A stretch of 64,000 nt of DNA. Origin: Tubulanus polymorphus (Eukaryota; Animalia; Nemertea). Below, piece after piece: positions 2,825-63,360 of this stretch; within the stretch, counting starts at the first letter, position 1; each line of letters begins with the position of its first letter. A model generated the notes under the pieces. That model had not been told where the DNA came from. It made no database searches and saw nothing but the letters and a program-made list of their open reading frames with translations. Where the stretch lies: positions 10,982,655-11,046,654 of the forward strand of contig NC_134033.1 in the NCBI RefSeq assembly GCF_964204645.1, read 5' to 3'. Both the position numbers and the translations under genes were made by a program.

Positions 2825-3130
2825 TGGAGACAAACGCCAAACGAATCATCCTCAGCCTCCACTTCTAGTGCCGCTGCCGCTGCTGCTGCTGCTACTGCCG
2901 CTGCTGCCGTTGCATCGTCCACATCCGCGCCTTCCGTTGCTTCTACTTCTACTACTACCACTACCACGCCTCGGTATACGCCGGTCGTGGCGGCCGCGGC
3001 GGCTAGTGCCCCCGGCGGCGTCGCGACGCTTAATCATCACCACGGCACATTCCCGCCGACGCCGTCGCCAACGGCCGGCTATATCGATGGTTATCGGCTA
3101 CGATTTACATCGCCGGAAATGTTGCCTTAT
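2825..3130 (+). CDS. mbl: Muscleblind candidate exon (Ala/Ser/Thr-rich, phase 0-0, 102 codons: WRQTPNESS...FTSPEMLPY), probably an alternative cassette
   Basis: Acceptor ttttttcttacag|2825, donor TAT|gtgagt at 3131; GC-rich open frame in AT-rich background; 306 nt keeps frame with exon 5530. Confidence 0.6.
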
Positions 3131-5529: not shown

Positions 5530-5733
5530 GCTCATCCGACTTACTTCAACCCCGGTCTCCAAACTGCTGCATCATTCAATCCATACCTAACATCGGGCGT
5601 CGCCATGCCCGGCATCATGCAGACGCAGGACGGTTCACCGGTCCCGCAACACGCGGGTCAAATACAGACCCTACCGGTACAACAGGCTGGACCTACGGCT
5701 AAAACAACCGTACCTCGAGCTGATAGACTGGAG
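5530..5733 (+). CDS. mbl: Muscleblind linker exon AHPTYFNPGLQTAASFNPYL...VPRADRLE
   Basis: tatag|GCT and GAG|gtaagc; 204 nt; contains the MBNL-typical FNPYL and R(T/S/A)DRLE motifs that precede ZnF3. Confidence 0.93.
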
Positions 5734-9645: not shown

Positions 9646-9882
9646 GTTTGTCGAGAGTTTCAAAGAGGTAGTTGTACTCGTCAGCCTAGTGATTGTCGCT
9701 TTGCGCACCCCCCTGACCATGTACATGTGGACAACGGTGACAACCACGTCACCGTCTGCATGGATTTTATAAAGGGCAAATGTTCGAGAGACTCGTGTCG
9801 CTACTTCCATCCCCCTCCGCACCTCCAAGCTCAGATCAAAGCCACGCAACAACGTGCTACTCTCGCTGCTCAACAAGCCATG
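9646..9882 (+). CDS. mbl: Muscleblind tandem CCCH ZnF3-4 exon: [23 protein letters not shown]...[32 protein letters not shown]...AM
   Basis: ttag|GTT and ATG|gtaggg; 237 nt; Cx7Cx6Cx3H plus Cx7Cx4Cx3H spacing and HPPxHLQAxIKA are diagnostic for the MBNL second finger pair. Confidence 0.97.
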
Positions 9883-10055
9883 GTAGGGTAAACAACAACA
9901 GCAACCACGTAACGTTCAGACGTAAAACTATAATGGGATTTGAGATGAGGTCAGTCCGAGTCTGTCTGCTGCGGTGCTCTTCCTATTCTAAATCTTTACA
10001 TTTCAACTTCCATTTTTGGACAAAAATCTGTTCATACAGGTATGAATTAACAGCG

Positions 10056-10315
10056 TGGAACCACCAGCACCCCTCTCAAATACATTCGTAATCCCCCTGC
10101 GGTAGCGTCAGTCCGGAACCACCAGCACCTCTCCGTGGTAGCATCAGTCTGACCACCAGCATCCCCTCTGCGGTAGCGGCAGCCTGGTACCACCAGCACC
10201 CCTCCGCGGTAGCGTCAGCCTGGAACCACCAACACCCCTCCGTGGTAGCATCAGTCTGACCACCAGCACCCCTCTCAAATACATTCATAATTTTCCGCGG
10301 TAGCGTCAGTCTGAA
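10056..10315. repeat. Degenerate ~34-37-bp minisatellite (accaccagcaccc...ggtagcgtcagtc)
   Basis: About 7 degenerate copies. Confidence 0.85.
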
Positions 10316-10930
10316 CATGACTCTTGATAGCGTGGTGAAGTATCTGGTGTTTTATAGCCAATATCTTTTAGTTCATTTGCAATAAATGATATAACCGGTG
10401 ACATCTTGTGATCAAATGCTGGACGATCGAAAATTGGAAGAATGGTAATAAGGCGACCACGCTGCGAATTGAAACCTGTATATATAGATATATTTGAAGT
10501 TCATAAAACGCACCGTCAGCAGCGACATGGCCGCCTACTCTATCTCAATCATCTCTTATTCTCAGTTGAAAATGTTACAGATCTTGCGCTTTCATCATCA
10601 CACCCATATATATCAGCAACCTGTCTCCACTCAGCCCTTTGATTGCCCCAAGAAGCAAAACAGAATAAGCTTGAAATGGTCAGTTGCTAAAAGGCTGTTA
10701 AATGTAATCTAAAATGGATCCAGTTAAATGGATCCAGTTCCGCAATGTCGTGTGTTAACTCATCAACTCGGTTCTTCAGAGTGAACTCTGCAGCAGTTGA
10801 ACTTGAAAAAAATAATCTGTCAATTCTTTACTTCACAATTGTAGTATGTAAAAGTGTTGGACCTGGGTTCAATCCAACAGTCTTCAATCTAAAAAACTGG
10901 TCCTAAGTTGTAAGAAGGGCTTAGACTTCT

Positions 10931-11207
10931 GGGGCCGGTTGCACAGTCATGGCTTAGACTTAAGACCAGTCTAAGACTAACTTAGTTCTGTAGCTAATCT
11001 AACAATTGGGACCAGTCCCATAGTCATGGCTTAGACTTAAGACCAATTTAAGACTATTTTAGTTCTATAGCCAATCTAACAACTTAAGACCAGTCTTAAA
11101 ATCTAAGGCCATTTTTGGACTTAAGTCTCAACTGAGGAACTGGCCCCTGGAGACTAGTCTGGAGATTTAAGACCACTTTTGGACTTTAGTTACGACTGTG
11201 CAACTGG
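10931..11207. mobile_element. MITE with termini cc(g/a)gttgcacagtc...gactgtgcaactgg and a nested related copy (~11028-11148); relatives near 35.1 and 37.8-38.05 kb
   Basis: Terminal inverted repeats; repeated internal ttaagaccagtct motif; non-coding. Confidence 0.75.
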
Positions 11208-11459
11208 ATTAAGCATGAACAAACCTAACCCTTTCTGGAATTTGGATTGAATTTATTGTAGAACAGCCATCATAAATGTTCTTTTTTCTTAAAAAGACAG
11301 CTTTTCTTCTAGAGGTGGACACTCATTTCCAAAATAGCATTTAACAACCTTTGAGTAACTGGTCCCCAGATCAGCAGCATCTTCTCAGAATCATAATGAA
11401 GAGATATTGATTATTTTTAACACATTTCCTAAGCTCTCTGATCTGTTACGTATATCAAA

Positions 11460-11485
11460 CTGCTGCTGCTGCTGCTGCTGCTGCT
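11460..11485 (+). repeat. (CTG)8 intronic repeat; also (CTG)6 at 16082-16099 and (CAG)6 at 27966-27983
   Basis: Direct inspection. Confidence 0.95.
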
Positions 11486-13351
11486 TTCTATCTTGGCCGT
11501 TGTTCGCGTACATGCGCTTCTTTCATTTCGAGCTGTCTGATTATTGTAGATATCGCTCTATTTGTGAAATTAGTGAATTAGTTATAGTGGAGAAAGGTTT
11601 GCAACTTTTGAAAAAAAGCCTCTCATGTTTCATTTCATTTTCTAACCCTTTTATTTTCAACACTGTTTCTATTTGTGAAACAAAAGAGATGTTTTTTATG
11701 AGCTTTCGATTTTGTGACCAATTGTAGAAACGCAGTTAGGAGGATCAATATTTGCAAATTTTACAAACACGGAGTTCGCAAAAATTTCGACAATCGAATG
11801 CTCCTAAAAACGCTTGAGGATATCATAACTGACCAATCAAAATTCATAAACAACCAGTCATATTGTTATAGATGATCCTAATGTGTGTTAGGTAAATCTA
11901 GTATATTGAGCTGATTAGTTCATATTGCTGAATCATTGAAGTTATTGAGAATGAGAAGATTGTCATTAGTAATTAATGATAAGTCATTGAGAGTAATCTT
12001 AAATTCATTGGTATAATCGAGATTTATATCAGGTTAGAATCATTAGAATGCTGTCAAAATAAGTAGATATAATTCTAATGGATCCCAGATGAAAAATTCA
12101 GTGTTGAAAAATAGGGTTAGCGCTTCTTTTTTTTTATATAGTTGACGAACTAAGCGTTTTGGACGGTTGACGACGTTTGATGCTCCAACTTTTTTACGTA
12201 TTAAGAATACATATTTATATCTGGTATCAGAGTCTCACATGTCATACAATTTTTTTCCGCGTGTTTTTGAAGGTGTTTCGTTTCATCTGTTCCTAAAAAA
12301 AAAAAACGAATTGTGCAAATATTATTAAATGAACCTAGAATTTGAAAGTGTAATTAACATAGATTTAGGCCACTAGAGAACTCCTCTATATAGTTATTTA
12401 TTAGTTGCTGCTGGACTGGGTTGGGTATTTTTCTGACTCTCCTACTATTTCAGGAGGACTTTGTCCTTCTTTAACTAGTTCTGAAGGTTTAGATGTATAT
12501 ATTGCTCTTTAATGCTCTGCTGTTTTGTGCAAACTTTTAGCTGCCTCGCTCGCTGCTGCGTACAAATGTGTACATTATATATCCATATTAACCGTATATG
12601 AGAAATCGTGAGATACTAGCTAGCTTGTATTTTAGTGTGCTCTGATGCTGCCTTTTCGCTGCGTTCCCCGCCCGCTACATTACGCAAATAAACTCCCCCT
12701 AAAACTGAGTGGCCCCCGAGCTTTAGAAAGTCCTCCTCACTCCGAGCTGAAAGCAATCGCACACGCTTAATCAAAACCCTCATATTCTACGTAGTTCGAC
12801 GCCTATCTTTCAGATCAATCGTTACAAATTTTTGCAATCAACGCTAGCTAGCAACTTTTCTTCCAGAAGTTTTCCGAACATAATTGGAACTCGTAGTTCT
12901 ATCCGCATTACTTGCCTATATCTACGTAACTATTACTCTTTATGTGCGAACTTATCGTCTATTGTGGCATCATCGTTAATTTTCGTTACATCGGCGCTCA
13001 AACATTGTTTCTCCTGCTTTTTGTAGTGCAATGAAAAAGGTTTTCCTGCATTTTCTGTGTTTGTTGAGCTCTTTTTCGTCAGAAATGAAACCAACGAAAT
13101 TAATCTTCGGTAGCCGAATAGAAATTTTTTGGTTTCTATGTAGTTTCAGGTTCAGCTGTATTTGAGATTTTTTTGTGTGATTTTTATGGGAAAAATTTCT
13201 TCTTTTCTTTTTCGTGTCCAACTCACAGACACTTCCCCGAACTCAACCCGTTCGCCGGTTATAATGATAAAAAACTGATGATTAAATTTTTTGAATTTTT
13301 GTTTGTTTCAATATCTCTTACCGTTGTCTCTGCACGACATTTCGTTGACAG

Positions 13352-13471
13352 CCTAACGATCACAACCATCAAGCGGTACAAATTCGAACTACGCCAAACC
13401 CGGTGGCCATACAGGGGCCACCTCAACAATGGACAACGCAGCCCCCGCCGCAAGAGGTGCCGTGTACATGT
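13352..13471 (+). CDS. mbl: Muscleblind candidate cassette exon (40 aa, P/Q-rich: PNDHNHQAVQ...PPPQEVPCTC)
   Basis: ttgacag|CCT and TGT|gtaagt; 120 nt, phase 0-0, open; ~120-nt AG-free zone upstream. Confidence 0.6.
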
Positions 13472-13544
13472 GTAAGTTTAAACTGAATAGAAAAAAAACG
13501 AAAGCAAAAAATGAATACTAAATTACAGATTATTATTATTATTA

Positions 13545-13578
<34 letters not shown>

Positions 13579-16500
13579 CATGGAGTCAACTCATTCTATC
13601 TCTATTTTACTGTCGTTGAACCTTCTGTGATTGTCTGCCTGCGTTACACGCAAAATGATCAAGACAAAAAAATGAAAGGAATGCCGGGCTAGTTTTAATG
13701 CATATACATATCCACCGTTTACAGGGATGCGAACCTGGTGAAAATCTGGGAATGCCACTTCTGCCATGACGTGAAAACCCCAGTGTCTAAAGGTCAGGGT
13801 CAGTTTCTAGCAGGTTGTTTGATATTCCAATTGTGTGACCATGCTATTTGAAAAATAGTTACCTGGCATAGCTGCTGTGCAACCAGATGCTTTTGCAAAA
13901 GCCTGCTAAGCTTTTCGAATATCAGTGAACTGTAAAGAGTTGCAGCAATTTTTTTTTAATGATACCATAGGACCCAGTTCCAGTGATTTGGGTTGATATG
14001 TGATAAATGAAAATTGGATCCAGTTTCACAATTGTGGGTTAGATTTTACCCTTGGGTCATAATCAGTTCATTTCCAATTCATTTATTTGAACCTCAGACT
14101 GTGGAACTGGCTCCCCATCGTGGTACAGCATTAGCAGTGTTTGTTAATATTTGCTGGCCTGGGTTCGCGTGTGGTGGCAGGGAGTCAGTCTCAGGGTTCA
14201 CATCCTTGCCAATGAAAGATGAAAGCGATATATATGTGTATATATATATGCCTTCCTGTTGGCTGTCTAACTGTCTGCTCTACTGCTATGATACACAAGG
14301 TCATAATCAAGGTCATTTGATCTGTTTCCTGCTTTTTATTCACTGCAGAATTGAATAAATCGAATCTTAATTTTGCCTTTTATTTTTAATCACCAATCAT
14401 CGAATTTATCCAGACTCAAGACAACTTCTTGCATGATCAATACATATATGCATAGGGTAGTTGTGTATACTTTGTTGCTATGTTTGAGAAATGAAATTTG
14501 ACTTCTAGTTCGGTTAAGCACTCAGCTTTTAAACAATTTTTTATCGCATTGAGTTTGTTAGAAATAAGAACGACTGTAAAAATGTGTAAATGAATTATAT
14601 CGGTATTTTTGAAGACATTTAGGACTGGTAATCGTACATGTACACCTAGAAAGACAAGTTACTCGATGATTTGTCTTGAACAAGTCCCACTATTGGATTT
14701 TGGGAAATGAAATGTATCTTAAGCACAAGTTTGAATAGTTGGCTTCGTGCTTGATTCTTTATCAACCGCCAATGTAATTTTTTGAGAAAATGCTTCTTCT
14801 AAAATTGAAGCGAATTCATTTATTTGGTTATCGTATTACTTACTAAAATGGTGGCATCGATGTGGATAGCACTATTGTAAATTCGAAAAATAACCTTATG
14901 GAGGTTAAAGTCTGATGCTTTATGTCCAACAGACTTTTATTGTTCAATTTGATTGCTTGTATCAGGTGGTAATATTTGAAGTAAGTACCATCATCAGGTA
15001 GTTAAAACAACCAAATGATCTTCATGACATCGTTGAACATTTCAAGGTCTAAAATCTAATGGTTGGCTTTTTTTATGAGAAGATAAATAAGTTGGAAATT
15101 TAGAAGCATCTCATTCAGCCCCCGTGGAAGATGACAGTGAGTTCAGAGCAGTCCGTGCTAAGCATTGTCGCGTTCAAAAACAGGTCATGATGGATCAGAA
15201 GACACTTCGAGGTTCTGTGTTTATTCGACTATGAAGTCATTGACTTAGTAAAAGAAGAAACATTTTAACTAGAATCGTAGTGTCACCGAACATAAGCAGA
15301 CTTGTTGTGGCAAAGCCCAATGTGATATAGACATTGGAAATGCATGGTCATGTTCAAAAGAAATGTTCTACACATACAAGCACTCTGATATCAAGCTTTT
15401 GAATATGATGTGCTTGGAATACCAGATGCATTTTTGATATGTGTAATGAGTTTAAGGGGCACTTTATTTTATTTTCTTTCTCAATGCCAATAAGTTTTAG
15501 TTTTGATACGTTCTTGTATTAAGTAGTGGTATGTCTGTTTTTGAAATGCAGGAAAATCTTTTTACCGCTTACTCTTCTAGGAGCAGCCTATCTATACACA
15601 GCCACAAATGTAGCGATTTTAACGTTTTTGAACATCAGTCGAGCGCACTTTTAGGTTACATCTTTCACTTGCAGCTAGCTATCCAATAGAAAAACTTCAT
15701 GGTCCCGTTCTGGTGGTAAAAGCCACTGTTTAAAATGATTTTCTTCCACTTGGCCACTTTGTCAACCGAAAGATTCCATTGGAGCTTCTGAGCAGCTTTT
15801 TAGGGAACGAAACTACGCTGGTGACTCGCTTAAGTTTTCTGCTTTGCCTTGGCTTTGTCTTTGTGTATGTCGATATTAACCTGACTAATAAATATCATTA
15901 TAATTATCAACAATATTGTTACTGTTATGAATAATGAGCTTTTAGTTGATAAGGCATACATTATTGGCCGCTCGCTGCAGCTATAGTTGCATAAGCTATG
16001 CATTGTTTGATGAATCATAATGCTTCAGTGATTAACATATTAAATGGACTTATTACGTATTAACATAACACCTGCTATTCGCTGCTGCTGCTGCTGCTGT
16101 AGATTTTGTAGTGCTTCATCTTGCACAACACTCGCGTCATTTTGTGCCGGACGATTTGAAATACCCGAACATCGATGTCAATTCCCATTTTGGAAGCTAC
16201 TCGTCTTTAGTTTTTTCTAAGCCATTATCATTGGCGTTGGCAGTCGCAACTGTCTTCTTGTCCCTGACAGCAAAGAGCATGTGTGTATATATTTGTATCA
16301 TGAAGTTTTTAACTTTCAGTTTTTGTAAAAGAGACTTGGCACGTGAATGGATGAAGTTCTTTCATGAACCTCTTTACTCTGGTTTTTTTTTTCTTAATGA
16401 CATGTGAAACTTTTAACGGCCATAAATATGTATACATATATATATATTCAATAAATGGAGCATGCGTCTATATGCGTTTCTATAGTTACTATGCTTATTT

Positions 16501-18922
16501 GATTATTATTCATGCCATTGTCATTACCATTACAATTTTACATGTCCTAACCAATCAGCTTCTTGAGTCGTATATAAATATTAAACTAGCTTATTTTTGG
16601 GCACCGGCCTCAGTTTTTTTAATAAAATAGTTCCGACGTGTGTTTTCCTTGCATGTGGATTGTTGAACTGGTGAATGTAACAAACAATGATGAACTCATT
16701 GCCGATGTCAACCCCTCGTAACATCACTCCAACTAGTTCTGGTTAAAGCACATACAATGTATTTGCTGATAAAGAACAAATGTAGGCGATTTTGTTTTTG
16801 AAGCTGATCTGGTGAAAGAGATTTTAAAAGTTACCAATTACCAAATGCACCGTCCTTCCCAGTTAGGTCACGCTATTAGCATTACCGTTTCCATGTCCCT
16901 CCTTACAAGTTACAATTTTTAGTGTGGCCATTCGAAAATTACTTTAGCAACTAAGACAACCTTGAGTATTATAATTTTCTCTCATCATAAGAAATGGATG
17001 AAACATTCAAACCAAACTCTACAACCATCATAGGTTTACCATCATTACTGGCTTCATTTTTAATGTAGTTCTCGAATGCAACTTCCCTATCTTCAGTCAC
17101 TATACACTACTACCTTTGCCACCTCAATCCTGCCTCTTAACAACTTTCCAAACGTTTACTACGTATCTTACCTCTGCCTCTTACAGCCTCTAGGACTTCA
17201 TAATAGCCCTCGCAAATGCGCTCACCGATAATTCAAGTCGATGTTTCATCATTTGTGTTATAATCTGTAAACTGCTATGACGGCCCTTCTCTCGTTTATG
17301 AAATAACTGTCAAACTTTGCAGCATGAATATCATTGAAAAAATTTGAATCATTATTTCTATTGTTATTATCATGATTATTATAATTATTATTATTATCAT
17401 TAGTCGTATAGCCAGGCGCTGGTATCAGTAATCGTATATACCTCACTACCACTTCTATTTCCTTTCTTACAGCAACGTTTCTAAAATATCTTCCTAATTA
17501 CCAAATTAATAGATATCATTCGTTGCTTTGTCGAGGGCCTAGTTTTCTGCATTTTCAACCGATATTTCATTCACAAAATCATTTTTTCAAAAATTTTGGC
17601 ATCTAATTTTTAACTTACAATTTGTGGAAGTCTTTTCAACTGTTTGTATCTCGGTGCACGAATAATTGGTTGAATTTGTTTTTAAAGATGGCTGCTATGG
17701 CAACTCGCACATTCGTCTAGTCTAGTCCACGATCGTTCGATTTGGACGCAGCGCCATTTTCACGTTTGAAACCATTAAAACAGCAATAGATTTTACTTTT
17801 TCAAATATCGAAGAAGATTTATTCAACTGCTTGAATGGGTTAATTTTCATTCGGCAAATTTTTTAGAGTGTGAGACAAGTTCAAATTCATCTCATTGTCT
17901 ATAGTAGTTGTACTGTGCCTGTTATGCTCATCAAAATCTGTCTGCCTAAATTTTTAAAAAACCCATTGAACAATACGACTAAATCAATTTTTCATCGAGA
18001 ACTATTCGCTTATCTTGCATTGTGTATTACCACCATTATAATTATGATTATTATTATCATTATTGTTATTATTATTATTGATATTCGATTTTAGTGTTTG
18101 TAGTCTATATATATGATGGCTTTCCATGTGACGCTATTGCATTCTAGATATACGTTTGTGTAGGCATATTCTTGAACCCTGTCAGCGATAACATTACCTA
18201 CTATTTTTCTTCCGGCAAGAAATCCACCAATTTTTCTATTAAGAAAAAAAATCTCAGCCGTCATTCATAATTTCTCGCCTAATTTCCAAATTTATAATTT
18301 GTAATTTGTAACTCAAAATTTTATCGAAATTTACTCCATATTGAAATTACATTCTACCACATTCTTTTGGTTTTTTACTTCAAAATCTGATTTGGAATTT
18401 ATAACCGACCTCATGGCATAGATAGATAAGCAGAATAAACGACAGTACTGCTATCAACACTGAAGATGGGTCTCTTTCTGAGATAGAACTTTTGCCGAAT
18501 GGACATATATATATGTATATATATTGCCCTGTCTACACTAGAGAGTGAATATGGATTTAGAGTATTTTATACTAATGAAACTGAGGACTCGATCAATCCA
18601 CATTCATTTAATCCACAAGACCACCTAGTCTCAATCAGTCCTAGAGTAAATAGGAACATCTTGCTTGCCCATATATGTTAATGTATGTACTGGTGCATTG
18701 CAGAGGCGTCTCGTGTAGACATAAATTCATTCTGAATTTCGTTTGAATGAATTATGCTTGAAAAATCTTCCAAAATCTCTAGTATAGATATGCGGCATTT
18801 GTATCTCGATGCGATATGAAAACTACCGTAATTTCACCCTCTATTTTCTGTTTAACAAACAAACGAACGATCAAAATAGAAATAAAATATCTACTGACTG
18901 GAAACCAAAATTATGCATGTAG

Positions 18923-19067
18923 ATCTGTTACAACTACTTATTAATATTGGTGCTTTTCTTTTTATTTTTTATTTCCCACGATGCATTGCTGCTTGCTGTT
19001 GTCATGTGCCGCCAACCCTGCCATGCTATTGGCCAATTGCGATCATGTGCTCTGCATAACTAATTAG
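18923..19067 (+). promoter_or_regulatory. AG-exclusion zone / distant branch point with ~9 YGCY (MBNL) motifs upstream of the NLS exon
   Basis: No AG between 18923 and 19065; TTAAT at 18941-18945 followed by a pyrimidine tract, then TGCT/TGCC/CGCC cluster. Confidence 0.8.
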
Positions 19068-19133
19068 CAGCCAGTGGTAGAGGTGTTGAAGGGCAAGAAG
19101 CGTACACTCGATCCTGCCGATGAAATCGTCCTG
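19068..19133 (+). CDS. mbl: Muscleblind NLS cassette exon QPVVEVLKGKKRTLDPADEIVL (counterpart of the vertebrate MBNL1 54-nt exon 5)
   Basis: taattag|CAG (NAGNAG alternative start 19071) and CTG|gtactat; 66/63 nt, phase 0-0; KKR basic motif between ZnF4 and the KRPA exon; 143-nt AG-free YGCY-rich zone upstream. Confidence 0.85.
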
Positions 19134-22100: not shown

Positions 22101-22789
22101 ATGGCGGCAATTTGGATCGTGACAAAAATGGAGATAAAATTCTGTCCGTTAGAAAATGTCCAATTAACTTTAGAATCATCACGATATTAATTCAGCCGAT
22201 ATGAATAATGATATTCCTGTTAAGATTATTATCGTAATGATAAAAACGAAATATTCTTTCTCGTGAACGACTATAATGTAATCTATTCTGGTGTATGTCG
22301 AGAATTCATGAATGTTCATATTTTTAATCTGCAAAATTCTAGTAGTCAGTAGAAATTTGGGTCGCCCGCTGAAAGAATGGAACTACAAATTTTATAAGCC
22401 GATGTGCCAATTATTTTTGTCAACAATACGAAAGATGGGTAGATTTTTTGTTTTTTTTTTTTGTATGTCGAGTGTTGATAATTCTACTAAATCAACTGGT
22501 TTTGAGCTAAAAATCAAATGGAATCTGTACATAGCTTTCCAGTGTTTCAAAGCATTTTTGATTTGTCGAAACATTTCTGAACTTGATAAAGAATTTGTCC
22601 TTTGTTGAGACAACACAAAGCTTTATCAAATATGACATTTACAAGGTATTCAAAAACTGATCAAACGTGATGATTTTGTCTTGAAATTGTGCTGCTGACT
22701 GTAAAATACATTCTCTATGTAGTCTGTGTGGACGGTGGTTCAGTTTCATTTTGAACTACTCATGCCAAGGCAGACCAGGCCTTTAAACT

Positions 22790-22970
22790 GGTCGGGTGGT
22801 TTGGGGAGAATAAACCAGTCAGGGCTGCAGAGTCGGGTGGTTTGGGGAGAATAAACCAGTCAGGGCCACAGAGTCGGGTGGTTTGGGGAGAATAAACCAG
22901 TCAGGGCCGCAGAGTCGGGTGGTTTGGGGAGAATAAACCAGTCAGGGCCGTGGAGTTGGGTGGTTTGAGA
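22790..22970. repeat. 41-bp minisatellite (agtcgggtggtttggggagaataaaccagtcagggc..), ~4.4 copies
   Basis: Period 41 measured from 22831 to 22872. Confidence 0.9.
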
Positions 22971-23112
22971 GATGATTTGGTATTCAGATAAGTCATAAAG
23001 GGTAATGATGTTAACCTCATTGACTAATGTACCGACTAAGTGAACAGACAGTGACATTTCTCAAATATCCTGTGAACTGATCTGGCAAATAATCAGAAAA
23101 CCCTCGCATAAA

Positions 23113-23254
23113 GATGGCTACCTCTTACATCCTCCTATGACATCATCAGATTGCCATCTAGCAGATAGGTCGTTTTGGATTTGTTTTCTTGGAGAATCTC
23201 GATCAAATCGCTAAGGCAGATTATGATGTCATGGGGGATTTTAGGATAGCCATC
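23113..23254. mobile_element. Foldback/MITE-like inverted repeat (gatggcta..atgacatcat / atgatgtcat..tagccatc)
   Basis: ~45-bp imperfect arms. Confidence 0.55.
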
Positions 23255-24074
23255 ATGACTTGTTCAATTCAATGACTAGTTCAATTTAAAATAATTAATC
23301 TGAATTTGTTTGTGAAGCTTCACGGCTGATCAATCCAGGGGAACTTTTATCTAATAAGCAAAAATATTTAGAAAGCCACATTTAAGTGATGTCTAAATTT
23401 TTGGGTTTAAAACAACTATTTTCCCCCACCCCTATCTTAAACATGGGTATAGACAACTGGAAGTATCATTTATATCCTCTGCAGCTTCTCTAGTTCTATA
23501 AGGTCGACTTGTCTCCGTTAAGCCTGTTGTGACAAGCGTCTGCACCTTTATTCAAGGTCATCTACTCAATTAGTATGCATGACGACTGCTCGGTCACTGA
23601 CTGGATTTCGACATAAAACTTGGCTAAAGTGCTACTCTAGAATTTCTTGTTTATGGCCACACGACACTTCAACGATCGGAATATATGAATAAATCGCAGA
23701 GGCTGCACGCTCCTTTCCACGGCCAGGCAGACATAATTCAAGACAAGATGTGTCATTGATATCAACTTCACCTTGATCGCAATGTTTTGTGAATGTACCT
23801 TTTTGGTAATTTTATCATTTTTGAATAGTAACTCAACTCAGCCCATCCACTTGCTGTTGATTCTTCAATAGACCTAGTGATGATCAGTTGAATACAATAT
23901 TCAACTCTGAGCAACATGAAGAGGGAAATTTTCAACAATAGAATTAGATTGAACATTTTCAATTGATGCAATCGTTACCAAATCATGTAGTTAAAATGCC
24001 AATACCTTTCGACCAATTTTTACTAATCAGAGTTTCCAGATGTAGCTTGCCACACAGTTGGCTGAATTGCTACC

Positions 24075-24137
<63 letters not shown>

Positions 24138-24600
24138 CTTAAAAACTGTTCGAATTTTGATAAAGATTTGATTGAAAATGAATTGGTGCGGCGGCTACTT
24201 TCATAATTGGCTTCATAGAAATATCAATTCAAAATACATCTTTGTATAAAGCTGAAACCAGTTCTACGTATTGTTAATTGTTTTTCATAGATTTTTAACT
24301 GCAAATGTTATGTATACATAAAAGTATATATATATATTTATAAGTTTTTCATGAATTCTTGACAAGTTTTATTCTGTACTTAGAATAGGAAAATATTTTT
24401 TCGAAATGTTGAGATTTTTTTCTGTATTTTCGATGGCCACACTGAAAAAAAAACAATGCGCAAACTTCTAGAAATGAAAACCTAATTTGATGTTTATGCG
24501 ATGTGATCATCGATCTGTGTGATCATCGATCTGTGTGATCATCAATCTGTGTGGTCATCGACGTAGAAAAAAAGTTGAATGACGAAGTGAAGTTTAAAGA

Positions 24601-24816
24601 ATACTGTAAAATCCTACAATATTGATAAAGGAAATCAGTTCGAGAGTTTGGTTTGAGTATAGTTTATTTTAATGTTTCGACTTTATCCTAATAGTCATAT
24701 TTAATAATAGTAAAGTGACTCCATTTAGAATATAGTTGAAACATTAAGATCGATTTTATTCAAGCAAAAACTTCCGATCTCATTTATGTTATCGGTATTG
24801 TAGGATTTAACTGTAC
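24601..24816. mobile_element. Foldback MITE, Tc1/mariner-like (aaatcctacaata...tattgtaggattt)
   Basis: Long imperfect inverted arms. Confidence 0.6.
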
Positions 24817-25665
24817 TATTCAACACGGATAGAAAAAAAGTTAAGATTAAAGTTGGAGCTCCAAACATCAATATCTGTTGTCATTGAATGAAAGAAAATC
24901 AACGGTAAAGAAGCAACAGTTTGAACTCAATTGACTTATATAGTTGAAACCAGTTGCTGGAATCGGGTCCTAGGCCTTCTGAAAAAAAGAAATAGATATT
25001 CTGAACAAATTTTCGATGATTTGCTTTCATCCAAAACGTTAAGTTATTTTGTGATGTTGTAACAGTTTTGTATGTGTCTTAAACATCAAAAGGCCGAGAC
25101 AAAAAGAAAAATTGTTTTTCAATCTGTCCACGTTCCTAAGTTGTGGTTCATCATTTGATCTTCTATTAAAAATTAGTTCAATTAACCTATGACTCTAGAG
25201 ACTTTCAGTTACAGTCTCTTTAATTAAAATTAGATTTACATGTTTTATTTACTAATGAGTCAGTCTGAAAAAAATGAATGGCACTGGAGTGAAATCTCAA
25301 TTTGTTCAGACATTGAACTCATTTGAATGACATTACCTCCATTTTGGACCCATTCCAGGCTTGCAGTTCAAATACCTTTAACTTAAGAATATTGAATAAT
25401 GAACTCATTTTGACAGAAGAGTTGATGTTCAACTCACAACTATGGTACTGACTCAAGCGAGGACCCAGTTCTCAGATGGGGGTTGAAATTTGACTCTAAA
25501 ATTAAGACGATTATAAATCAAATGATTTCATGAGTCGAATTTCGACATGGAATTTTGAAACTGACTGTAAATTTGCAACTCAAAACTATCATCACATATC
25601 AAATACTATATAAATTCAAACGAACTCGAACCGTGAAATAATTGTGTGTATTTTTCTGATATTAG

Positions 25666-25831
25666 GGAATGACTGGAATGCCAGGAATGGTACCGATGAT
25701 GAAACGGCCAGCAGTAGCGGATGCAAAGAGTGGTCTACCAGTTTACCAACCGGCGTCTAACGTCGCCGCCTATCAACAAGCGTTAGCCGTTGCGCAATTG
25801 CAACAAGGGCAAGGATATGTACCGGTCTCGT
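25666..25831 (+). CDS. mbl: Muscleblind exon GMTGMPGMVPMMKRPAVADAKSGLPVYQP...GYVPVS (ends phase 1)
   Basis: attag|GGA and T|gtaagt; 166 nt; KRPA motif and YQQALA motif typical of MBNL C-terminal region. Confidence 0.92.
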
Positions 25832-26833
25832 GTAAGTAGTGTGAAAGTATTGTGGGAATCAATAACGAGGGAGGCGGGTTTAATTCGACTTAAAATCAGG
25901 CTTCAAAGTTGTAGGTTTATTGCGATTCCTGCTCCAAACCAAATTTTTCTTTCTCCATCTGGTTTGCGGGATGCCCTTTTTTGTTTCAAAGATGAAAATC
26001 ATTTGCTGCACTTATTGACTGTTTGATGTTTACTTGTAAGGAGTGGAAACATTGTTTCAGTGTTTATAAGTTCTGTTCTTCAAAGACTGGCAGTTATTAT
26101 TAGCTCACAAAAATCTATCGTGGTTTTTGTAGATGCATTTATACAGAGCTACGAGTTTTTACTTATGTCATCTAAGACAAGTCTATCTATATAATCATCG
26201 GTATCATTTAATTCGTTATAATTCATGCACTTTTGAAGTCACGCTAAGAGCCTTTGAAAGTCTTTGAAAGTTGCAACATGAACTAAGAAGATAAAGGCAA
26301 TAGATCGGTTTTTACGTTAGTCTGAAATAAGGTTATATGTACCCTTCTAGTACGCGACATCGAATACACCACATTCCTATCTACCGTGGTCTATTCAGAT
26401 ACTATTCTTAGGTAAATTGATTATGAAATATCGCTCGGAGAGTTTTAATAGTCTTTGATGCTACAAACATTGATAAGTTCATTTTCTGCGCGGCACATTG
26501 TAAAAAATTTGGTGTAGTTAACGTTTATCACATTAGCAGAACTTTTCTCTCTGCAATGCTACACGTTTGATTACATTCTCTTCCGCTGTCGCAAAATAAC
26601 ACTGGCGACATTTGTTTAATTCATCAACTTTTCCACATTCTTAATGAATAGAATAAATATAGGTAGGTGATATAGGTGTTTATGTAGAGATGTTGTCGAT
26701 TTTAGAATTACGTGAAACGTATTGATATTTCATCTGGTTATTAGTATTTCATCTGGCCCTAGAAATTCCAAGAACTAATTGATATGTCTCATGAAAGTCT
26801 AGATGATAGGATCTAAGTTGATCACTAAAAATG

Positions 26834-27118
26834 CTAGCCCATGGTGATGCAGGGCTAGCCTATGGCAGATACGTTATTCAGCTAGCCCATGGTGATGCGG
26901 GGCTAGCCTATGGCAGATTCATTACTCAGTTAGCCCTTAGTGATGCAGAGCTAGCCCATGGTGATGCAGAGCTAGTCTATGGCAGATACGTTACTCAGCT
27001 AGCCCATCATGGTGCAGAGCTAGCCCATCGTGATGCAGAGCTAGCCCATCGTATGCAGAGCTAGCCTCTGTTGATGTAGAGCTAACCCATTGCGATACAG
27101 AGCTAGCCCATGGTGATG
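26834..27118. repeat. 21-bp-based minisatellite (gctagcccatggtgatgcaga)
   Basis: About 12 degenerate units; gives the spurious LAHGDAE ORF. Confidence 0.9.
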
Positions 27119-27534
27119 AGTGGTTCGATTTCATGGTTCTCTAGAGTTATAAGTTTGTCGACTTCGGTGATAAGTTAATGGTCGGATAACGAGACATCAG
27201 TCAGCCAATTATAGCCGTAAATGATGCTCAAGTGAGAACACCTCGGCGAGTAATTGGTCATTTTGTTTCGACAATCAGGCAGTTTTTGGTAGTTTTTCAC
27301 CCGTTCAATATGCGAGATTGCCGCGCTTAAAAAAGTACGAAGCGTGACTGACATAACTCGTTTGTAAAAGATGAACATGGTTAGCAGTAGGTAATTTCGA
27401 ATCTAGGGGTTGGACATTAGTATGTGGTTTGGGAAATAGAAACAGAGATTTTAGAATTCATACACTGACTACTATTTTTATATTGCTATCAGTAGTTAAC
27501 CTTCGATGGGAGCTGCCATATTGCAAACTCTTAA

Positions 27535-27818
27535 CCCTTTCAGTGCGTCTACACCGCAGTGCGGTGTTTGAATCAGTGATGGATTTTGCTTGTACACCGC
27601 ACTGCGGTGTATTGATTTATTTAGTTATTACTAATTATCTCTCTTGAAATATGGCAGCGCCTGTCAAACATAGTGAAATATTAGTAACTAACGATACACC
27701 ACGCCACGGTGTAGACGCACTATAGTGCTATTCTTGTTGTTCAACACACTAGGGTGGAATTTTTCAGAATTTTCAAATCATCAGCCTATAGGGTATTAAT
27801 TAGCCAGCACTGAAAGGG
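27535..27818. mobile_element. piggyBac-type MITE (284 bp)
   Basis: TTAA|CCCTTTCAGTGC ... GCACTGAAAGGG|TTAG; 12-bp TIR; internal palindromes tacaccgca(g/c)tgcggtgt. Confidence 0.75.
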
Positions 27819-29792
27819 TTAGCGACACGAGAAAATGTTTAATGAGGCAGTAGTTTGAATTTGGCCCATGGAATAGCAACATCCAATATGAACACCTAGG
27901 GCCTCACTATGTTACACGCTGTTGCTCTTGCAGAGAATATATTCGCTGCTACGTGAAGATAATAGCAGCAGCAGCAGCAGCAGCCGGGAGCTCTAAAAAC
28001 ACTCTTTTAGAAAATCGAAAGAATATATTTCTGCGTTCATAAAGGTTTCAAATACGTATGAGTATTCAATAACTCTATAGATTCCCCTTGAAATACTCTA
28101 CTAGAAAGTATTCGAACATACTTTCGATCTATCGTTGGTCAATAGGCGGCAATCTAATCTTGGAACTCGGTTATTTTCACTCCGTAGATTCAGTCATTGC
28201 AGAGACAGGATCCGGTGACCGATTCACTATGAGTAAACCACACGCGTCAAACTTTCCAACAAATTCGGCCGATTATTCACTATTCAAGTGGGTTGATGTT
28301 GGTAACCGAATAACTGCCGGTTACCGACGGTTACCGATGTGATGCCGAGCTGAAGATGAAATTTGACGCGTCGTGCCTCAATAATTTATGACTCGCGACG
28401 CATTCAACAGGAGTCAGTTTCATCGGCGATGATGACATATTAGGGAATTTAATACTTGTTATGAGGTGCTCGGTATTCACTGTATGAGCGTCTTGTATGA
28501 TTTTTCCAACAGACAAACGACATCTAGTTTCATAGAGTGCCGTAGCATGAAATTATAAGTGAAATGCTGTGGTAATTCGGGTTTGTAGTTTATGCTGTTC
28601 TAAGAGACCGATCCTTGTTGAAAGTTGCCGAGTGGATTGTAATTCAGGGGCTCGCTGAGGGCTGTTTCTGCTCCAAACACATGGCAGGCATATAGACATA
28701 CAGATATAAGATCCAGTTTTATTTTGTAGCCACTTCCTTCTTGGCGTTTAAATCTGGGGATTTACGAAAAAAAAGATTACAAATCTGCTATTCCACTTGT
28801 GGATCCACCAATCAGCTTTTAATGGACATCAATGCTGCATTTCTTTTTTACGTATGAAAAGGTCATTGTTTAGTTTATGCTGAGGCATGATTCGTCTAAT
28901 TCTGGGTAAAAATTAGCTGAATTTCCTTAGAGTGTCGCGGGAGCAGCATCTAGTGGGATAACCCGGTCGCATAGCGGGATAGTGCATTGCTGTATCGATG
29001 CAATTCCTATAATAAAGTCTCTGACGATACAATCCAATCATGAAACCACCGGTTAGATTCAATCCTGCCGCTGCCGGTGCATGATTTATTTTTCGTGTGA
29101 AATCGTTTTTTAAGTAAGGCAGTAATTAATCATAGTATCTCCAGAGCGCCAAGGAGCATTACGCGTTCCGCTCGGCGTGAAGGTGCGACTGCTCTTCAGA
29201 CTCAAATTTGATTAAAATCGTCTCCCGTTTGCTGTCATCGCTGTCTGCCGTAATAACTTATTGATAAATAAGAAACAATGTGTTCAGACAGATTTATTCG
29301 CGATCACTCTCTTTTCGGTCATGTGTCTGCTTCAGCGGCGGTTGCCGTCGACAACGATGAATCAATCGAGATTTTAATGCGTATCGCGCGCGTGCAAAAT
29401 GAAACCGGATTATAACCTGATGATGAAATAATTTCTTTTCCGATTCCATTTTGAAATTGTTACTTTTGAAATATCGAAATTTAACGATCCTACGATCATT
29501 AATGATCATATGAATATTAAACCTATCGGAAAAAGATCATTAGCGATCATTAACAATTCATCGCAGCTTGTCCAGTTCAGATAAGGTACTCACAAATTAC
29601 CCTCTAACATCACAACTTCTGCATGAATTGAAAATTATTTAAGTTTTTGAAGGCAATATCCATCATTGCGATCGTTTCCGGCCTTTTCGCCCCATTTGTT
29701 ACGTACATCAAATGTAGAGTCTTTTAAATTAGTCATTTAATCAGTTCGTATTCTTCTGATCGAGTTCATAGATGGTTTAGAAATCGAGAAAG

Positions 29793-30083
29793 TTATGGAC
29801 GTAAAACTGATGGCTGAAATTAATGTTTATGCTCTGTGTTTTTTCTCTTTCATAAACTCACAAAAATCGCACACCTATAAAACACTCGCGTGTGTGTGTG
29901 TGTTCACTGCTTGTCTCTACCTACCACATATACCACTGCATGCAACGCCTCCTAACACTATTCGCTCGCCACTGCTGCTTTCTCGACCACTACCAAAATA
30001 CTCGGGGTGCACCGACTGACCTCACTTGCCTGTGCTTGCTGCCGTTTTGCACACATACCGCGCAACACCACGCACACCAACAG
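29793..30083 (+). promoter_or_regulatory. 289-nt AG-exclusion zone with ~11 YGCY motifs and a TGCATG upstream of the frame-switch exon
   Basis: No AG between 29793 and 30081; candidate branch points TTAAT (~29820), CTAAC (~29952), CTGAC (~30016). Confidence 0.75.
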
Positions 30084-30199
30084 ACCCCACGACTGCCACC
30101 GCCTTGCTTTCGGGACAGACTTCACCGGTAACTGGTAGCACGGTTCAGCTTACCCACCATCACAATGCTAGCGTCCAATATTTTGACGAAAAAAGTCAG
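30084..30199 (+). CDS. mbl: Muscleblind frame-switch cassette exon (Y)PTTATALLSGQ...VQYFDEKSQ, phase 1 to 0; alternative donor ends exon at 30205 (+VQ)
   Basis: First AG after a 289-nt AG-free zone; open in the incoming phase-1 frame; donors CAG|gtacag (30200) and CAG|gtatcg (30206); 116 or 122 nt puts exon 32939 into the zinc-finger frame. Confidence 0.8.
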
Positions 30200-31440
30200 G
30201 TACAGGTATCGCTTTAACACGCCAAACGAGTTCCCACCAAACGTCTTAATTAGGTTTTTTTTCTGAAACACTTCACTGCTGAGGTCATACAACGCGATAG
30301 AGTACCTAGTCAATCAAATTATTTTGTCTCCAGAATTTAGATATTCCAAACTATCTTACTTTGTGTTTGGTATAGTTTTCATCGATAATTGATTTACTTA
30401 TTTACCTAGGAGAAAGTATGTTAGATTTTAATTGAAATATAAAAGAAGCAGAGGTAACTGGCAAACCTCACTTGCCACGAGGGAAATCCTCGATTGTGAT
30501 AGCAAGTTAGTCCTCATTTCTGGACAGCCTTACGATCGTCAGCACAAGGCAAGACCCCTGCATGAAAACCCCAGCAGTCGAAGTGTTAAGAATGAAACCA
30601 CATGCAATCAAGGTTTTCAATTACTGATTTCAAATACTTTTTTTCCACTTTCGAAACTTACATTACTCTATATTGTTAGTTCCACTTCAAATAGATTTGC
30701 ATAGCTAGAATGTTCTAAGACCTTTGGTGGGAACGCAAGCTTACATGAAGATTACAGGATCTGGATATGACTTCCTTTGATTTCGGATTTTGTATTTGAA
30801 ATCTCGGTTCTCAATTAGATTCAATCATCTCGGTGAATGGAAACTTCATGCATTTGTTTGTATTTGTAATTGTGGTGTTGGATGCTAACACCCTTTGTAT
30901 CGGTAACTCATACTCTTTCAATATCGATGACTTTACAATCATCGCTGAAATTGGAGAGTTTTAGATATCAACCCTGAGAACAATATTTGATACTGGGTCA
31001 AAATTCAATACCTAGGTGTGGGCAAATTATGATATATACCAAGGAACATTGTTGCTGTTCCCCAAGTTTGAGTGTGGTGGTTATTCTACTAATATAAACC
31101 ATTATTATTGCGGTATTCATAATGAGTTACTCGATGCATTGGGTTACTTTTATAAACTCATTCCCAGATTCACGAAAACGTTTTGCCAAATTCATAATTT
31201 GTTCAATTATACCAAACACAAATCAATCTATTCTTAAACATTTTCGTGAAAACTGAGACAAACAAGTTTTTCATTTCAAATTAATCCTTAACAGTTTATC
31301 AAATATTCCTTGCACAAAAGCATTACTTATTGATGCCCTCTCACAAAATGGCCTCAGAAATAATAGAATAATAATAACTCCTGTCTTGTGTGTTATACTA
31401 ATTTTGATATATTAACGAAACCCTTCGCTTTGCTACGCAT

Positions 31441-31457
31441 TGCTGCCCCCTGGTGGC
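31441..31457 (-). promoter_or_regulatory. CTCF consensus-like motif (GCCACCAGGGGGCAGCA on - strand)
   Basis: Close match to the bilaterian CTCF core; weaker matches at ~44028 and ~63740. Confidence 0.5.
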
Positions 31458-32938
31458 TGGTTCTAACCTTACCCACAACTGTTTGTCACACTAATGCACA
31501 TAGCTTGCTGCACGCCTTACTACATTCCAAAATTAGCGGATATACTTTTTGCATAAGCCAGGTCTGTTTATGCCGAAGAAGCAGCACCTGAACCAACGGA
31601 AAATATATAGATATCTGTTTGGATAATATTAATAAAATAGGTCGATAGAATAGATATACAGATTTTATCCTGCTAAACGCTAAACGCTGTTCCACTCGAG
31701 TGCACTTATTTTTTTTTTCCTGATGTCAAAGTCCTGATCGAGGTCGACTGATTGCAACTAACACCTTTTCCATGTTGCATAGGAATCTCAGGAGGTGTTC
31801 AACTTGCGGATCTCATCTGGAAAGCATCGTTCAAAATTTTTAAAGCTTCAAATTGTACTGATTGAATTTCTTGAGAGCGTGTCGTGCCGTGGAGTGTTTA
31901 TAAGGGAGTTTGATGTTTGTTTGATAAGAGGCGGAATCAAATATCCAGTAGGAAGGGGCATAGTATGCGCTGTATCTCGCTGTCTCAAATTTAGAGGAAA
32001 GATTTTTTGTCCACCATGCCACCAGCTATCCCCACAGTATAGATTAATACTAAGATTAGTTCATCTTCACTGGAACTGCGGCAAGTAAGGATCAACAAGC
32101 GGCCTTCAAAATCTTCTTCATTTCAGAACTCAAAATAATCCAGTTCTAAATTGTTTCTAAATGAACAAATTTTGACCCAAAAAATGCCGGCTGGTGGGAT
32201 AGCTGCGTTTGAGGCGGGATAGCTGTGTTTGAGGGAAGCCTGTCAATTCCAATCAGTGATTTCCATACCCAAAAATTGTATATGAAAATCATGATGATTA
32301 AGTTCCATTCACAAGTGAAGTACAGTTACAGTTTGAAGGTATTGATCGAAATTTGAGTTGGTTTGGCTGTTTAATATCTCACTACAGCCACTAGGCAGAT
32401 TCTTCACACTTGCTACAGTAGACTTGTAGGTATCTGATTCAAACGGTAAAAGGGAAATGTGAAGTCATGGCCTGCAGCAATATGTGTCATAGTGACTACA
32501 ACATCGTGGAAGGTTTATATCAGAACAAAATTCACTGTGAAATATTCTTTGTGCTAATAACATGTTTGCAGCCATATTGGAACCAGAAATTTCGTTAAGA
32601 TAAATTATTTTGAGGGATTTGGGGATTTGTGCCCATTTGCACAGTCTGGGCTGATGGCCCAAAGTGTTAAAACTGATCTGAAGTTATTAGATAGGATAAG
32701 AAGTAAGAAAAGCTAAGACTGGTCTTAAATCTTACTAAAAGTTAAAACATGTAAACTCCACTGAGAAACTAGTCTCCTGGGCCTAATTCTGTATGGTCCA
32801 TTTCCAAAACTGATCTCAGTTGTTACTTTTAGCCCATATACCGGTACATATAACAGCCCATCTATTACATTAACCCTGGTAGTTTTGTAAAATGTATTCA
32901 GTTATATGATTTCCGATTTATATTTCTATTTTCTATAG

Positions 32939-33023
32939 TTACTGGACACCATCCCGGTGTGCCGCGATTTTAAGGCTGGCCAGTGTTTGCGGCCACAATG
33001 CAAGTACGTTCACCTAGTTGAAG
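32939..33023 (+). CDS. mbl: Muscleblind dual-frame exon: phase 1 gives (F)TGHHPGVPRF* (TAA 32971-32973); phase 0 gives LLDTIPVCRDFKAGQCLRPQCKYVHLVE (CCCH finger)
   Basis: ttttctatag|TT and AAG|gtaagt; both frames give recognisable Muscleblind motifs. Confidence 0.92.
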
Positions 33024-33425
33024 GTAAGTGATTATTCTGGATAGATATGTTTACCTTAAGTTCTAAGGTTGATACATTTGTTTCTACGTCATTTTTGGTC
33101 TGAATTCTGAGGCCTGTAGCTTCTTAAAGGCTTGATGGGGGTATACTCTGGAAAGGGATCGTTCATGAAGGAACATATCAAGTAGATCTTTTGATGAATC
33201 AATTGTCAGGCAAACGCTGAAACTGTTGTGCATATTTATGATTATTGCAAGGTCATCCGTTTGTGTATTTGTTCATCACAGATGTTGATAATCGAAATTG
33301 TCAGATTGTGAAGCATTCGCATGCGCGATCATTGTGTCCCTGGATTCCCGGTTTTCCTAAAAAGAAAAATGTCGAACAAAAGGTTATGAGATAATTTTGA
33401 TAATAATGTTCTTTTCTTTCGGCAG

Positions 33426-33547
33426 ATTACGTTGAAGTTATGGATGGTAAAGTTACTGTGTGTCGCGATGCGGCTAAAGGAAAATGCACTCGACCGATGT
33501 GTAGATATTACCATATTCCTGCGGTAATGCCCCACATAATTCTGTGA
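33426..33547 (+). CDS. mbl: Muscleblind last coding exon (D)YVEVMDGKVTVCRDAAKGKCTRPMCRYYHIPAVMPHIIL* (CCCH finger)
   Basis: ttctttcggcag|AT, phase 1 matches the donor at 33024; Cx7Cx4Cx3H; TGA 33545-33547. Confidence 0.93.
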
Positions 33548-63278: not shown

Positions 63279-63360
63279 GTTCGTGCCGGAAGTCAAGAAG
63301 ATTTATTGACCCACTGAGTTTTTACTACAAGAAAGAGAAAATGGATTGATTTTTCTACAG

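What the first reader, a model, noticed from the sequence alone, without database searches (positions are those of the whole stretch)
9646..33547. Muscleblind with probably three tandem zinc-finger pairs (six CCCH fingers)
Seen: a vertebrate-like ZnF3-4 exon right after DRLE, plus a distinct C-terminal pair in which both fingers have Cx7Cx4Cx3H spacing. ZnF1-2 are inferred upstream of the window because the first exons here are linker sequence. Vertebrate MBNLs have two pairs, and the Drosophila second pair, as I recall it, resembles the C-terminal pair here. Inference: the ancestral gene may have had three pairs, with reciprocal loss, so the vertebrate and fly second pairs would not be orthologous.
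Basis: partly seen in the sequence, partly recalled or inferred. Interest (0 to 1): 0.78.

Follow-up and report, generated by a model that had tools for sequence, protein, structure and literature searches.

The report
Muscleblind's ancient third zinc-finger pair
This invertebrate's muscleblind gene, whose human relatives are the splicing regulators trapped in myotonic dystrophy, carries an extra pair of zinc fingers that an optional exon likely switches on; the pair is ancient, found from sponges to flies and hagfish and apparently lost in jawed vertebrates, so flies did not lose a different pair as first proposed.

Summary
The first pair lies outside the window and could not be fetched, but 120 of 120 listed homologues begin with it. 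Three pairs is the old animal state: six-finger proteins occur in a sponge, corals, echinoderms, amphioxus, tunicates, molluscs, arthropods including flies, and hagfish. The window's C-terminal pair groups with their third pairs (98/96); a lineage-specific duplicate is rejected (p=4e-6). Reciprocal loss is wrong: Drosophila keeps all three pairs and skips the middle one in some isoforms. The third pair is gated by splicing: exon 32939-33023 is read in two frames, and a 116-nt exon (30084-30199) selects finger 5 or a short tail. A spliced contig from a related animal shows the skipped form; the six-finger form was not seen here. That switch is published for Drosophila. Not found in print in my searches: the three-pair ancestry, hagfish retention, the likely identity of the switch exon with the vertebrate 95-nt exon, and three-pair look-alikes in green algae and ferns.

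The parts
2825..3130 (+). Candidate linker exon a (306 nt, phase 0/0, Ala/Thr-rich); probably optional
   Evidence: AG/GT sites and open frame; only low-complexity matches; not seen in RNA
5530..5733 (+). Exon b: linker between pairs 1 and 2, ends in DRLE
   Evidence: 43% identical over 75 columns to residues 128-199 of Lineus P0099
9646..9882 (+). Exon c: finger pair 2 (ZnF3-4), 237 nt, phase 0/0, so skippable in frame
   Evidence: best PDB hits human MBNL ZnF3-4 (112-114 bits) over ZnF1-2 (82-84 bits); tree
13352..13471 (+). Candidate in-frame exon d (120 nt)
   Evidence: Splice sites and open frame only; no homologue match
18923..19070 (+). AG-free, YGCY-rich acceptor region of exon e
   Evidence: 143 nt without AG before a tandem acceptor; 9 YGCY in 150 nt, shuffle p=0.0002
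19071..19133 (+). Exon e (63 nt): first basic motif (KKR) of the bipartite nuclear signal; counterpart of the vertebrate 54-nt exon
   Evidence: Matches Lineus and bivalve isoforms; arrangement described in PMC10773944
25666..25831 (+). Exon f (166 nt): second basic motif (KRPA); ends in phase 1
   Evidence: 72% identical to Lineus P0099 322-378; its 3' end is joined to exon h in contig 11 of run X4
29793..30083 (+). 289-nt AG exclusion zone with YGCY cluster before exon g
   Evidence: Longest of 3102 AG-to-AG gaps in the window; 9 YGCY in 150 nt, shuffle p=0.006
30084..30199 (+). Exon g (116 nt, 3n+2): frame-switch exon; inclusion puts fingers 5-6 in frame
   Evidence: its last residues line up with the stretch before finger 5 in other phyla; inclusion not seen in RNA here
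32939..33023 (+). Exon h (85 nt), dual-coded: finger 5 in one frame; short TGHHPGVPRF tail with stop at 32971-32973 in the other
33426..33547 (+). Exon i: finger 6 and stop of the long form; 3' UTR in the short form
   Evidence: h-i junction in contig 11 of run X4

Best explanation
The window holds the 3' part of an ordinary spiralian muscleblind gene with finger pairs 2 and 3 (pair 1 likely upstream), and pair 3 is an ancient module that the 116-nt exon g likely switches on by shifting the reading frame of the dual-coded exon h. Skipping g reads exon h as a ten-residue tail and stops (four fingers if exon c is in); including g is predicted to give fingers 5-6. Pair 3 is predicted to fold like MBNL1 ZnF3-4 and so likely binds GC steps in YGCY RNA. 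Exon g is probably repressed by Muscleblind itself through the YGCY cluster in its long AG-free acceptor, as shown for the vertebrate 95-nt exon (inferred, about 55%). History: three pairs in the animal ancestor; kept in flies and hagfish; pair 3 lost on the jawed-vertebrate line while the frameshifting exon stayed (inferred).
For: Shown: fingers, exon phases and two frames; spliced f-h-i contig in a related animal. 73 of the 120 listed homologues (of 3553 found; ranking favours more fingers) read 1-2-3-4-5-6, 14 have five, 32 have 1-2-3-4, one lamprey 1-2-1-2-3-4; all 120 start with pair 1. Six fingers in the sponge Sycon P0257 and hagfish P0380. Tree of 107 pairs: pair 3 one side of a branch 98/96, pair 1 100/94. 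AU tests on 50 rows reject window pair 3 as a copy of its own pair 2 (p=4e-6), fly pair 3 with pair 2 (6e-4), pig pair 2 as sister of hagfish pair 3 (8e-11), fly pairs 2+3 as sisters (3e-4). 26 of 32 four-finger homologues end in the tail; 19 of 20 distinct tails fit the other frame of a finger-5 start at 12 of 12 codons, 300 shuffles reach at most 9, and random synonymous codons give such a tail about 3 times in 10,000. A model of homologue P0351 (pair 3 only; pLDDT 92-95 over residues 271-320) matches MBNL1 ZnF3-4 at 1.5 A over 62 columns. Fly AE3 does the same (PMC9352392). Vertebrate 95-nt exon: frameshifting, repressed by MBNL1 (PMC9943662), AG-free zone 224 nt with branch point at -229 (PMC2991248).
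Against: Pair 1 and any transcript including exon g were not seen for this organism. Run X4 is only guessed to be RNA, is about 91% alike, and gives one contig of depth 5.5. The trees rest on 68-69 columns; pair 2 is not recovered as one group (monophyly not rejected, p=0.30) and 'pig pair 2 beside all pair 3' is not rejected (p=0.39). Exon g and the vertebrate 95-nt exon show no significant peptide similarity (197 of 1000 shuffles score as high). In fly heads mbl-O/P did not respond to MBL-C overexpression in brain and the two showed no crosstalk, which speaks against simple autoregulation of this exon. The first search missed the hagfish cluster, so absence from my lists is weak evidence; jawed-vertebrate loss rests on papers on mammalian MBNLs and a few proteins (pig, a lizard, eel, carp). 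No cartilaginous fish was knowingly examined.
Confidence: 0.82

Rival explanations
1. One reading: three ancestral pairs with reciprocal loss, vertebrates losing pair 3 and flies losing pair 2.
For: 20 of 21 Drosophila-named proteins retrieved with the pair-3 query lack pair 2. Trichuris P0259 and Trichinella P0263 models also read pair 1 + pair 3, so a true loss of pair 2 may hold in those nematodes.
Against: Fly exon 5 encodes a vertebrate-like second pair, 61% identical to human, amplified by RT-PCR (PMC3315501); D. montana P0139 has all three pairs; fly pair 2 is classed with fingers 3-4 and is rejected as sister of fly pair 3. Hagfish keeps pair 3.
Confidence: 0.03
2. Pair 3 is real and old, but in this species it is silent: exon g is hardly ever included, so the gene makes only tail-ending proteins and pair 3 is decaying.
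For: The only spliced contig skips g; no six-finger model was listed for Lineus or Lingula, the nearest rows to the window's pair 2.
Against: All eight zinc ligands are intact, identity to third pairs of other phyla is about 75%, and exon g has an open frame, consensus splice sites and a long AG-free zone.
Confidence: 0.1
3. Exon g is chosen by cell type through other splicing factors, not by Muscleblind feedback (a rival for the regulation step only).
For: In Drosophila mbl-C is brain-enriched, mbl-O/P is eye-enriched, and no crosstalk was found (PMC9352392).
Against: YGCY clusters sit before exons e and g but not before c, d or h; MBNL1 loss raises inclusion of the mouse 95-nt exon and MBNL1 binds there (PMC9943662).
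Confidence: 0.4

Closest known systems
Drosophila muscleblind, exon AE3: MBL-C versus MBL-O/P (PMC9352392); exon 5 and MblF (PMC3315501)
   Same: An optional exon shifts the frame and adds two fingers; the gene also has a vertebrate-like middle pair on a single exon. The window's C-terminal pair groups with the fly C-terminal pair.
   Different: The papers describe fly isoforms with one or two pairs and, in the parts I read, do not count three pairs per gene or trace pair 3 outside insects. The contig seen here joins f to h; whether the middle pair is usually kept in this animal was not seen. That MblF's second pair is pair 3 is my inference; I did not see the MblF sequence.
Human and mouse MBNL1-3
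   Same: ZnF3-4 with 7-6/7-4 spacing after DRLE; KR-motif cassette exon; next exon with second KR motif; then a 3n+2 frameshifting exon (95 nt; here 116 nt) behind a long AG exclusion zone (224 nt; here 289 nt).
   Different: Four fingers only; the frameshift chooses between unstructured C-termini (a PEST degron in MBNL2), not a finger pair. No significant peptide similarity between the switch exons.
Hagfish MBNL1-like isoform X5 (Myxine glutinosa, P0380), amphioxus, hemichordate, coral and Sycon models
   Same: Six fingers with the same 7-4/7-4 last pair in the same tree group.
   Different: Database models; the short GHPP-type tail was not noticed in the deuterostome, cnidarian or sponge proteins I read.

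Membership tests
Muscleblind/MBNL | Tandem CCCH pair, CX7CX6CX3H then CX7CX4CX3H | tested here: met
   Exon c; definition from PMC4176163. Pair 3 deviates: 7-4/7-4, shared by its homologues
Muscleblind/MBNL | N-terminal ZnF1-2 | not testable with these tools
   Outside the window, no genome held; present in 120 of 120 listed homologues; absent from two homoscleromorph sponge records P0122, P0335
Muscleblind/MBNL | Second pair on one exon | tested here: met
   Exon 9646-9882; rule from PMC3315501
Muscleblind/MBNL | Two KR motifs on adjacent exons, the first alternatively spliced | tested here: inconclusive
   Motifs on exons e and f; splicing of e not observed; rule from PMC10773944
Muscleblind/MBNL | MBNL tandem-finger fold for pair 3 | tested here: met
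   On homologue P0351, not the window protein: the ten matches at E<=0.001 are all MBNL1/2 domains
Muscleblind/MBNL | Binds YGCY RNA and regulates splicing | not testable with these tools
   Arg and aromatic columns in pair 3 are nearly invariant in 35 homologues; no binding data
Fly AE3-type frame switch | Non-3n exon directly before a dual-coded finger-5 exon | tested here: met
Fly AE3-type frame switch | Both isoforms are expressed | tested here: inconclusive
   Skipped form in one contig of a related animal; included form not seen
Vertebrate 95-nt MBNL exon | Follows the second-KR exon, length 3n+2, long AG exclusion zone | tested here: met
Vertebrate 95-nt MBNL exon | Sequence similarity of the encoded peptide | tested here: not met
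   197 of 1000 shuffles score as high (the profile held one mis-cut row)
Vertebrate 95-nt MBNL exon | Repressed by MBNL | not testable with these tools
   YGCY cluster only

The most novel reading that the evidence does not exclude
Three-pair Muscleblind is older than animals: streptophyte algae and ferns keep proteins whose last pair is orthologous to animal pair 3, against the textbook view that plants lack MBNL. In jawed vertebrates the third pair was lost after the split from hagfish, leaving its switch behind: the MBNL-repressed 95-nt exon of human MBNL1/2 is the orphaned on-switch of a lost RNA-binding module, and the short last coding exon is its decayed finger-5 exon.
Probability: 0.3. 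Interest if true: 0.72.

Novelty: new member of a known kind. Interest (0 to 1): 0.48.

Why it matters
Papers describe Muscleblind proteins as having one or two finger pairs (PMC10773944, PMC3315501). If three is the ancestral number, the human proteins are the truncated ones, and fly work on MBL-O/P studies a domain humans lack, which bears on fly models of myotonic dystrophy. It gives a likely origin for the frameshifting 95-nt exon that sets MBNL2 stability. Pair 3 has no solved structure among the PDB hits and its RNA preference is directly testable. The gene in the window is itself a typical member; its worth is as one more witness.

Tried and rejected
Fetching upstream DNA: no genome held. 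Sequencing runs: no RNA holder listed; X1-X3 cover introns like DNA and gave no splice joints. A 152-nt X4 contig on exon c was too short to use. I first reasoned that search 1 would have listed any six-finger vertebrate protein; hagfish P0380 turned up later, so that argument was dropped. Profile test of exon g against vertebrate proteins: not significant. ESM Atlas: MBNL clusters only, no finger counts. AU test 'pig pair 2 with all pair 3' is uninformative because it allows a sister position. Independent triplication in plants is not rejected (p=0.083; p=0.074 with Sycon, Dendrobium and several other rows left out). Lamprey P0017 has six fingers but by a repeat of pair 1, not pair 3. Rows dropped from trees: P0316 (mis-cut); hagfish P0390 pair 2 and D. 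montana pair 1 were not extracted because of inserts. PMC9084524 passages and the text supplements of PMC5041496 had nothing on a third pair (one file not searched, figures not held).
Full report
Observation. A six-frame scan of the window finds four complete CCCH fingers, at 9649, 9757, 32960 and 33461, all on the + strand. Reading the DNA and translating candidate exons gives exons a 2825-3130, b 5530-5733 (ends DRLE), c 9646-9882 (fingers 3-4), d 13352-13471, e 19071-19133, f 25666-25831, g 30084-30199, h 32939-33023 (finger 5) and i 33426-33547 (finger 6, stop). Exons a and d rest on splice sites alone. Exon c matches human MBNL ZnF3-4 structures better than ZnF1-2 (112-114 against 82-84 bits for the longer chains). 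Exon b aligns with the linker before pair 2 of Lineus. Pair 1 is not in the window and no genome is held, so six fingers are inferred: all 120 listed homologues start with pair 1. The organism is a spiralian by the tree (pair 2 with Lineus, Lingula and molluscs, 97/96).

How common is the third pair? Searching with exon c found 3553 proteins; of the 120 listed, 73 read fingers 1-6, 14 have five, 32 have 1-4 and one lamprey has pair 1 twice. The ranking favours proteins with more fingers, so this is no prevalence. Six-finger models come from corals, echinoderms, hemichordates, amphioxus, tunicates, molluscs, chelicerates, crustaceans and insects. A profile search of representatives and name look-ups added the sponge Sycon (six fingers), Oscarella and Corticium (pairs 2+3), Trichuris and Trichinella (pairs 1+3), and hagfish: Myxine isoform X5 (P0380) and an unnamed record of the same cluster (P0383) carry all six. 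The lamprey, pig, lizard, eel and carp proteins I saw have no pair 3. Since search 1 missed the hagfish cluster, absence in jawed vertebrates rests mainly on papers on mammalian MBNLs.

Orthology of pairs. In a tree of 107 animal pairs (68 columns, LG+G4) pair 3 is one side of a branch (98/96) and holds the window's C-terminal pair, the fly C-terminal pair, hagfish, amphioxus, corals and sponges; pair 1 likewise (100/94); pair 2 is unresolved at its base. On 50 rows, AU tests reject the window's pair 3 as a copy of its own pair 2 (p=4e-6), the fly C-terminal pair as a pair 2 (6e-4), pig pair 2 as sister of hagfish pair 3 (8e-11) and fly pairs 2 and 3 as sisters (3e-4). Pair-2 monophyly is not rejected (0.30), nor is pig pair 2 beside the whole pair-3 group (0.39).

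The fly claim. Irion 2012 (PMC3315501; parts 1-3 of 7 read, passages) reports a fly exon 5 with a second pair 61% identical to human and, apart from it, MblF with a second pair only 32% identical. In one search, 21 Drosophila-named proteins carry pair 3; 20 lack pair 2 and one, D. montana P0139, has pairs 1 (with an insert), 2 and 3. Glossina, Stomoxys and Eurosta have clean six-finger models. The fly lost nothing.

Mechanism. Exon f ends in phase 1 and exon g has 116 nt. With g, exon h opens in phase 0 and gives finger 5; without g it reads a short tail ending at a stop at 32971-32973, 50 nt before the h-i junction, at the edge of the usual 50-55-nt rule for nonsense decay (own knowledge). 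The tail is conserved: 26 of 32 four-finger homologues end in it; among 405 proteins held, 38 have it in 20 forms, 19 of which fit the other frame of a finger-5 start at all 12 codons, while 300 shuffles reach at most 9, and random synonymous codons give such a tail with its stop about 3 times in 10,000 (the tail pattern was chosen after seeing the data). Run X4 (RNA by guess, a related animal) has a 595-nt contig lying on 32939-33006 with 6 differences; its upstream loose end matches 23 of the last 30 bases of exon f and its downstream end finishes exon h and matches 12 of the first 13 bases of exon i (counted by hand). That is the skipped form. The included form was not seen. A model of a homologous pair 3 (P0351 in an alignment of 35) is confident over the fingers and matches MBNL1 ZnF3-4 at 1.5 A over 62 columns; all ten matches at E<=0.001 are MBNL domains. 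RNA binding by pair 3 is inferred from this.

Regulation. Exon g follows the longest AG-free stretch of the window (289 nt, first of 3102 gaps) with 9 YGCY in 150 nt (p=0.006); exon e has 9 (p=0.0002); c, d and h have 0-1. Mouse Mbnl2 exon 9 (95 nt, also in Mbnl1 and 3) shifts the frame, is bound by MBNL1 and rises when MBNL1 is lost (PMC9943662, passages); the MBNL1 95-nt exon has a 224-nt AG-free zone and a branch point at -229 (PMC2991248, passages); binding inside such a zone blocks the acceptor of MBNL1 exon 5 (PMC4176163, passages). Position, phase and acceptor type make g the likely counterpart of the 95-nt exon, but the peptides are not significantly alike. Against feedback: in fly heads mbl-C and mbl-O/P showed no crosstalk (PMC9352392, passages and section 13).

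What is known. The frame switch is in print for Drosophila: AE3 inclusion changes the frame and adds two fingers; an earlier scan note led me to that paper. Six-finger models are in public annotation. PMC10773944 (section 6 and passages) speaks of one or two pairs and trees only pairs 1 and 2 (its S4 figure is an image I could not see). PMC11837677 (passages, outline) uses 'TZF3/4' for fingers 3-4 and says MBNL is absent from plants. PMC5041496 (passages, text supplements) notes finger numbers vary among homologues; its figure was not visible. Searches listed no paper stating three ancestral pairs, hagfish retention or plant homologues; subscription papers are largely missing from the library, including the 2011 review cited for MblF, which may say part of this.

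Wider lead. Proteins from Mesostigma, Closterium, Ceratopteris and Dendrobium and two unnamed records have MBNL-like fingers in three or more pairs; the only PDB hits of the Closterium protein are MBNL domains. Their last pair groups with animal pair 3 (99/88 on 56 rows; 100/99 on 42 rows with a mixture model), but separate triplication in plants is not rejected (p=0.083, 0.074). An eel MBNL tail that fits the other frame of the pig last exon (10 of 11 codons) resembles a finger-5 start; random exon starts reach that score 0.9% of the time, a post hoc and weak result.

Verdict. Real feature, ordinary for invertebrate Muscleblind; the ancestral-three-pairs half of the reading is supported, the reciprocal-loss half is refuted. 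Interest 0.48, carried by hagfish retention, the link to the vertebrate 95-nt exon and the plant lead.

Noticed in passing
P0380, P0383: Hagfish MBNL1-like isoform with all six fingers; sister models P0381/P0382 run from finger 5 into a C2H2 zinc-finger array, probably read-through into a neighbour gene.
   Followed up: partly
P0302, P0352, P0357, P0323, P0349, P0355: Streptophyte algae, a fern and an orchid have MBNL-like proteins with three or more finger pairs, although a review says plants lack MBNL.
   Followed up: partly
P0304: A euglenid (Eutreptiella) protein with five MBNL-like finger pairs.
   Followed up: no
P0259, P0263: Trichuris and Trichinella models read pair 1 + pair 3; may be exon skipping or a true loss of pair 2.
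   Followed up: no
P0017: A lamprey protein reaches six fingers by repeating pair 1.
   Followed up: partly
window 19045-19070: The acceptor of exon e resembles, by eye, the human MBNL1 54-nt exon acceptor as read from a primer in PMC2991248; not tested statistically.
   Followed up: no
window 12541-12790: A YGCY cluster (10 in 150 nt) before a possible 81-nt in-frame exon at 12710-12790 with a weak donor.
   Followed up: partly
P0235, P0049: The other frame of the jawed-vertebrate MBNL1 last exon looks faintly like the start of finger 5.
   Followed up: partly
window 10930-11210 and 27530-27820: Very high-copy repeats in the introns (summed depth over 80,000 in run X1).
   Followed up: no
window 62216-63314: Two open stretches of 153 and 136 codons that look coding, no Pfam match at E<=0.01; the second recalls a plakin-type repeat (recalled, not shown).
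   Followed up: partly
P0030, P0043-P0045: Hemichordate and echinoderm models have two alternative versions of finger 6; 14 amphioxus models stop after finger 5.
   Followed up: no
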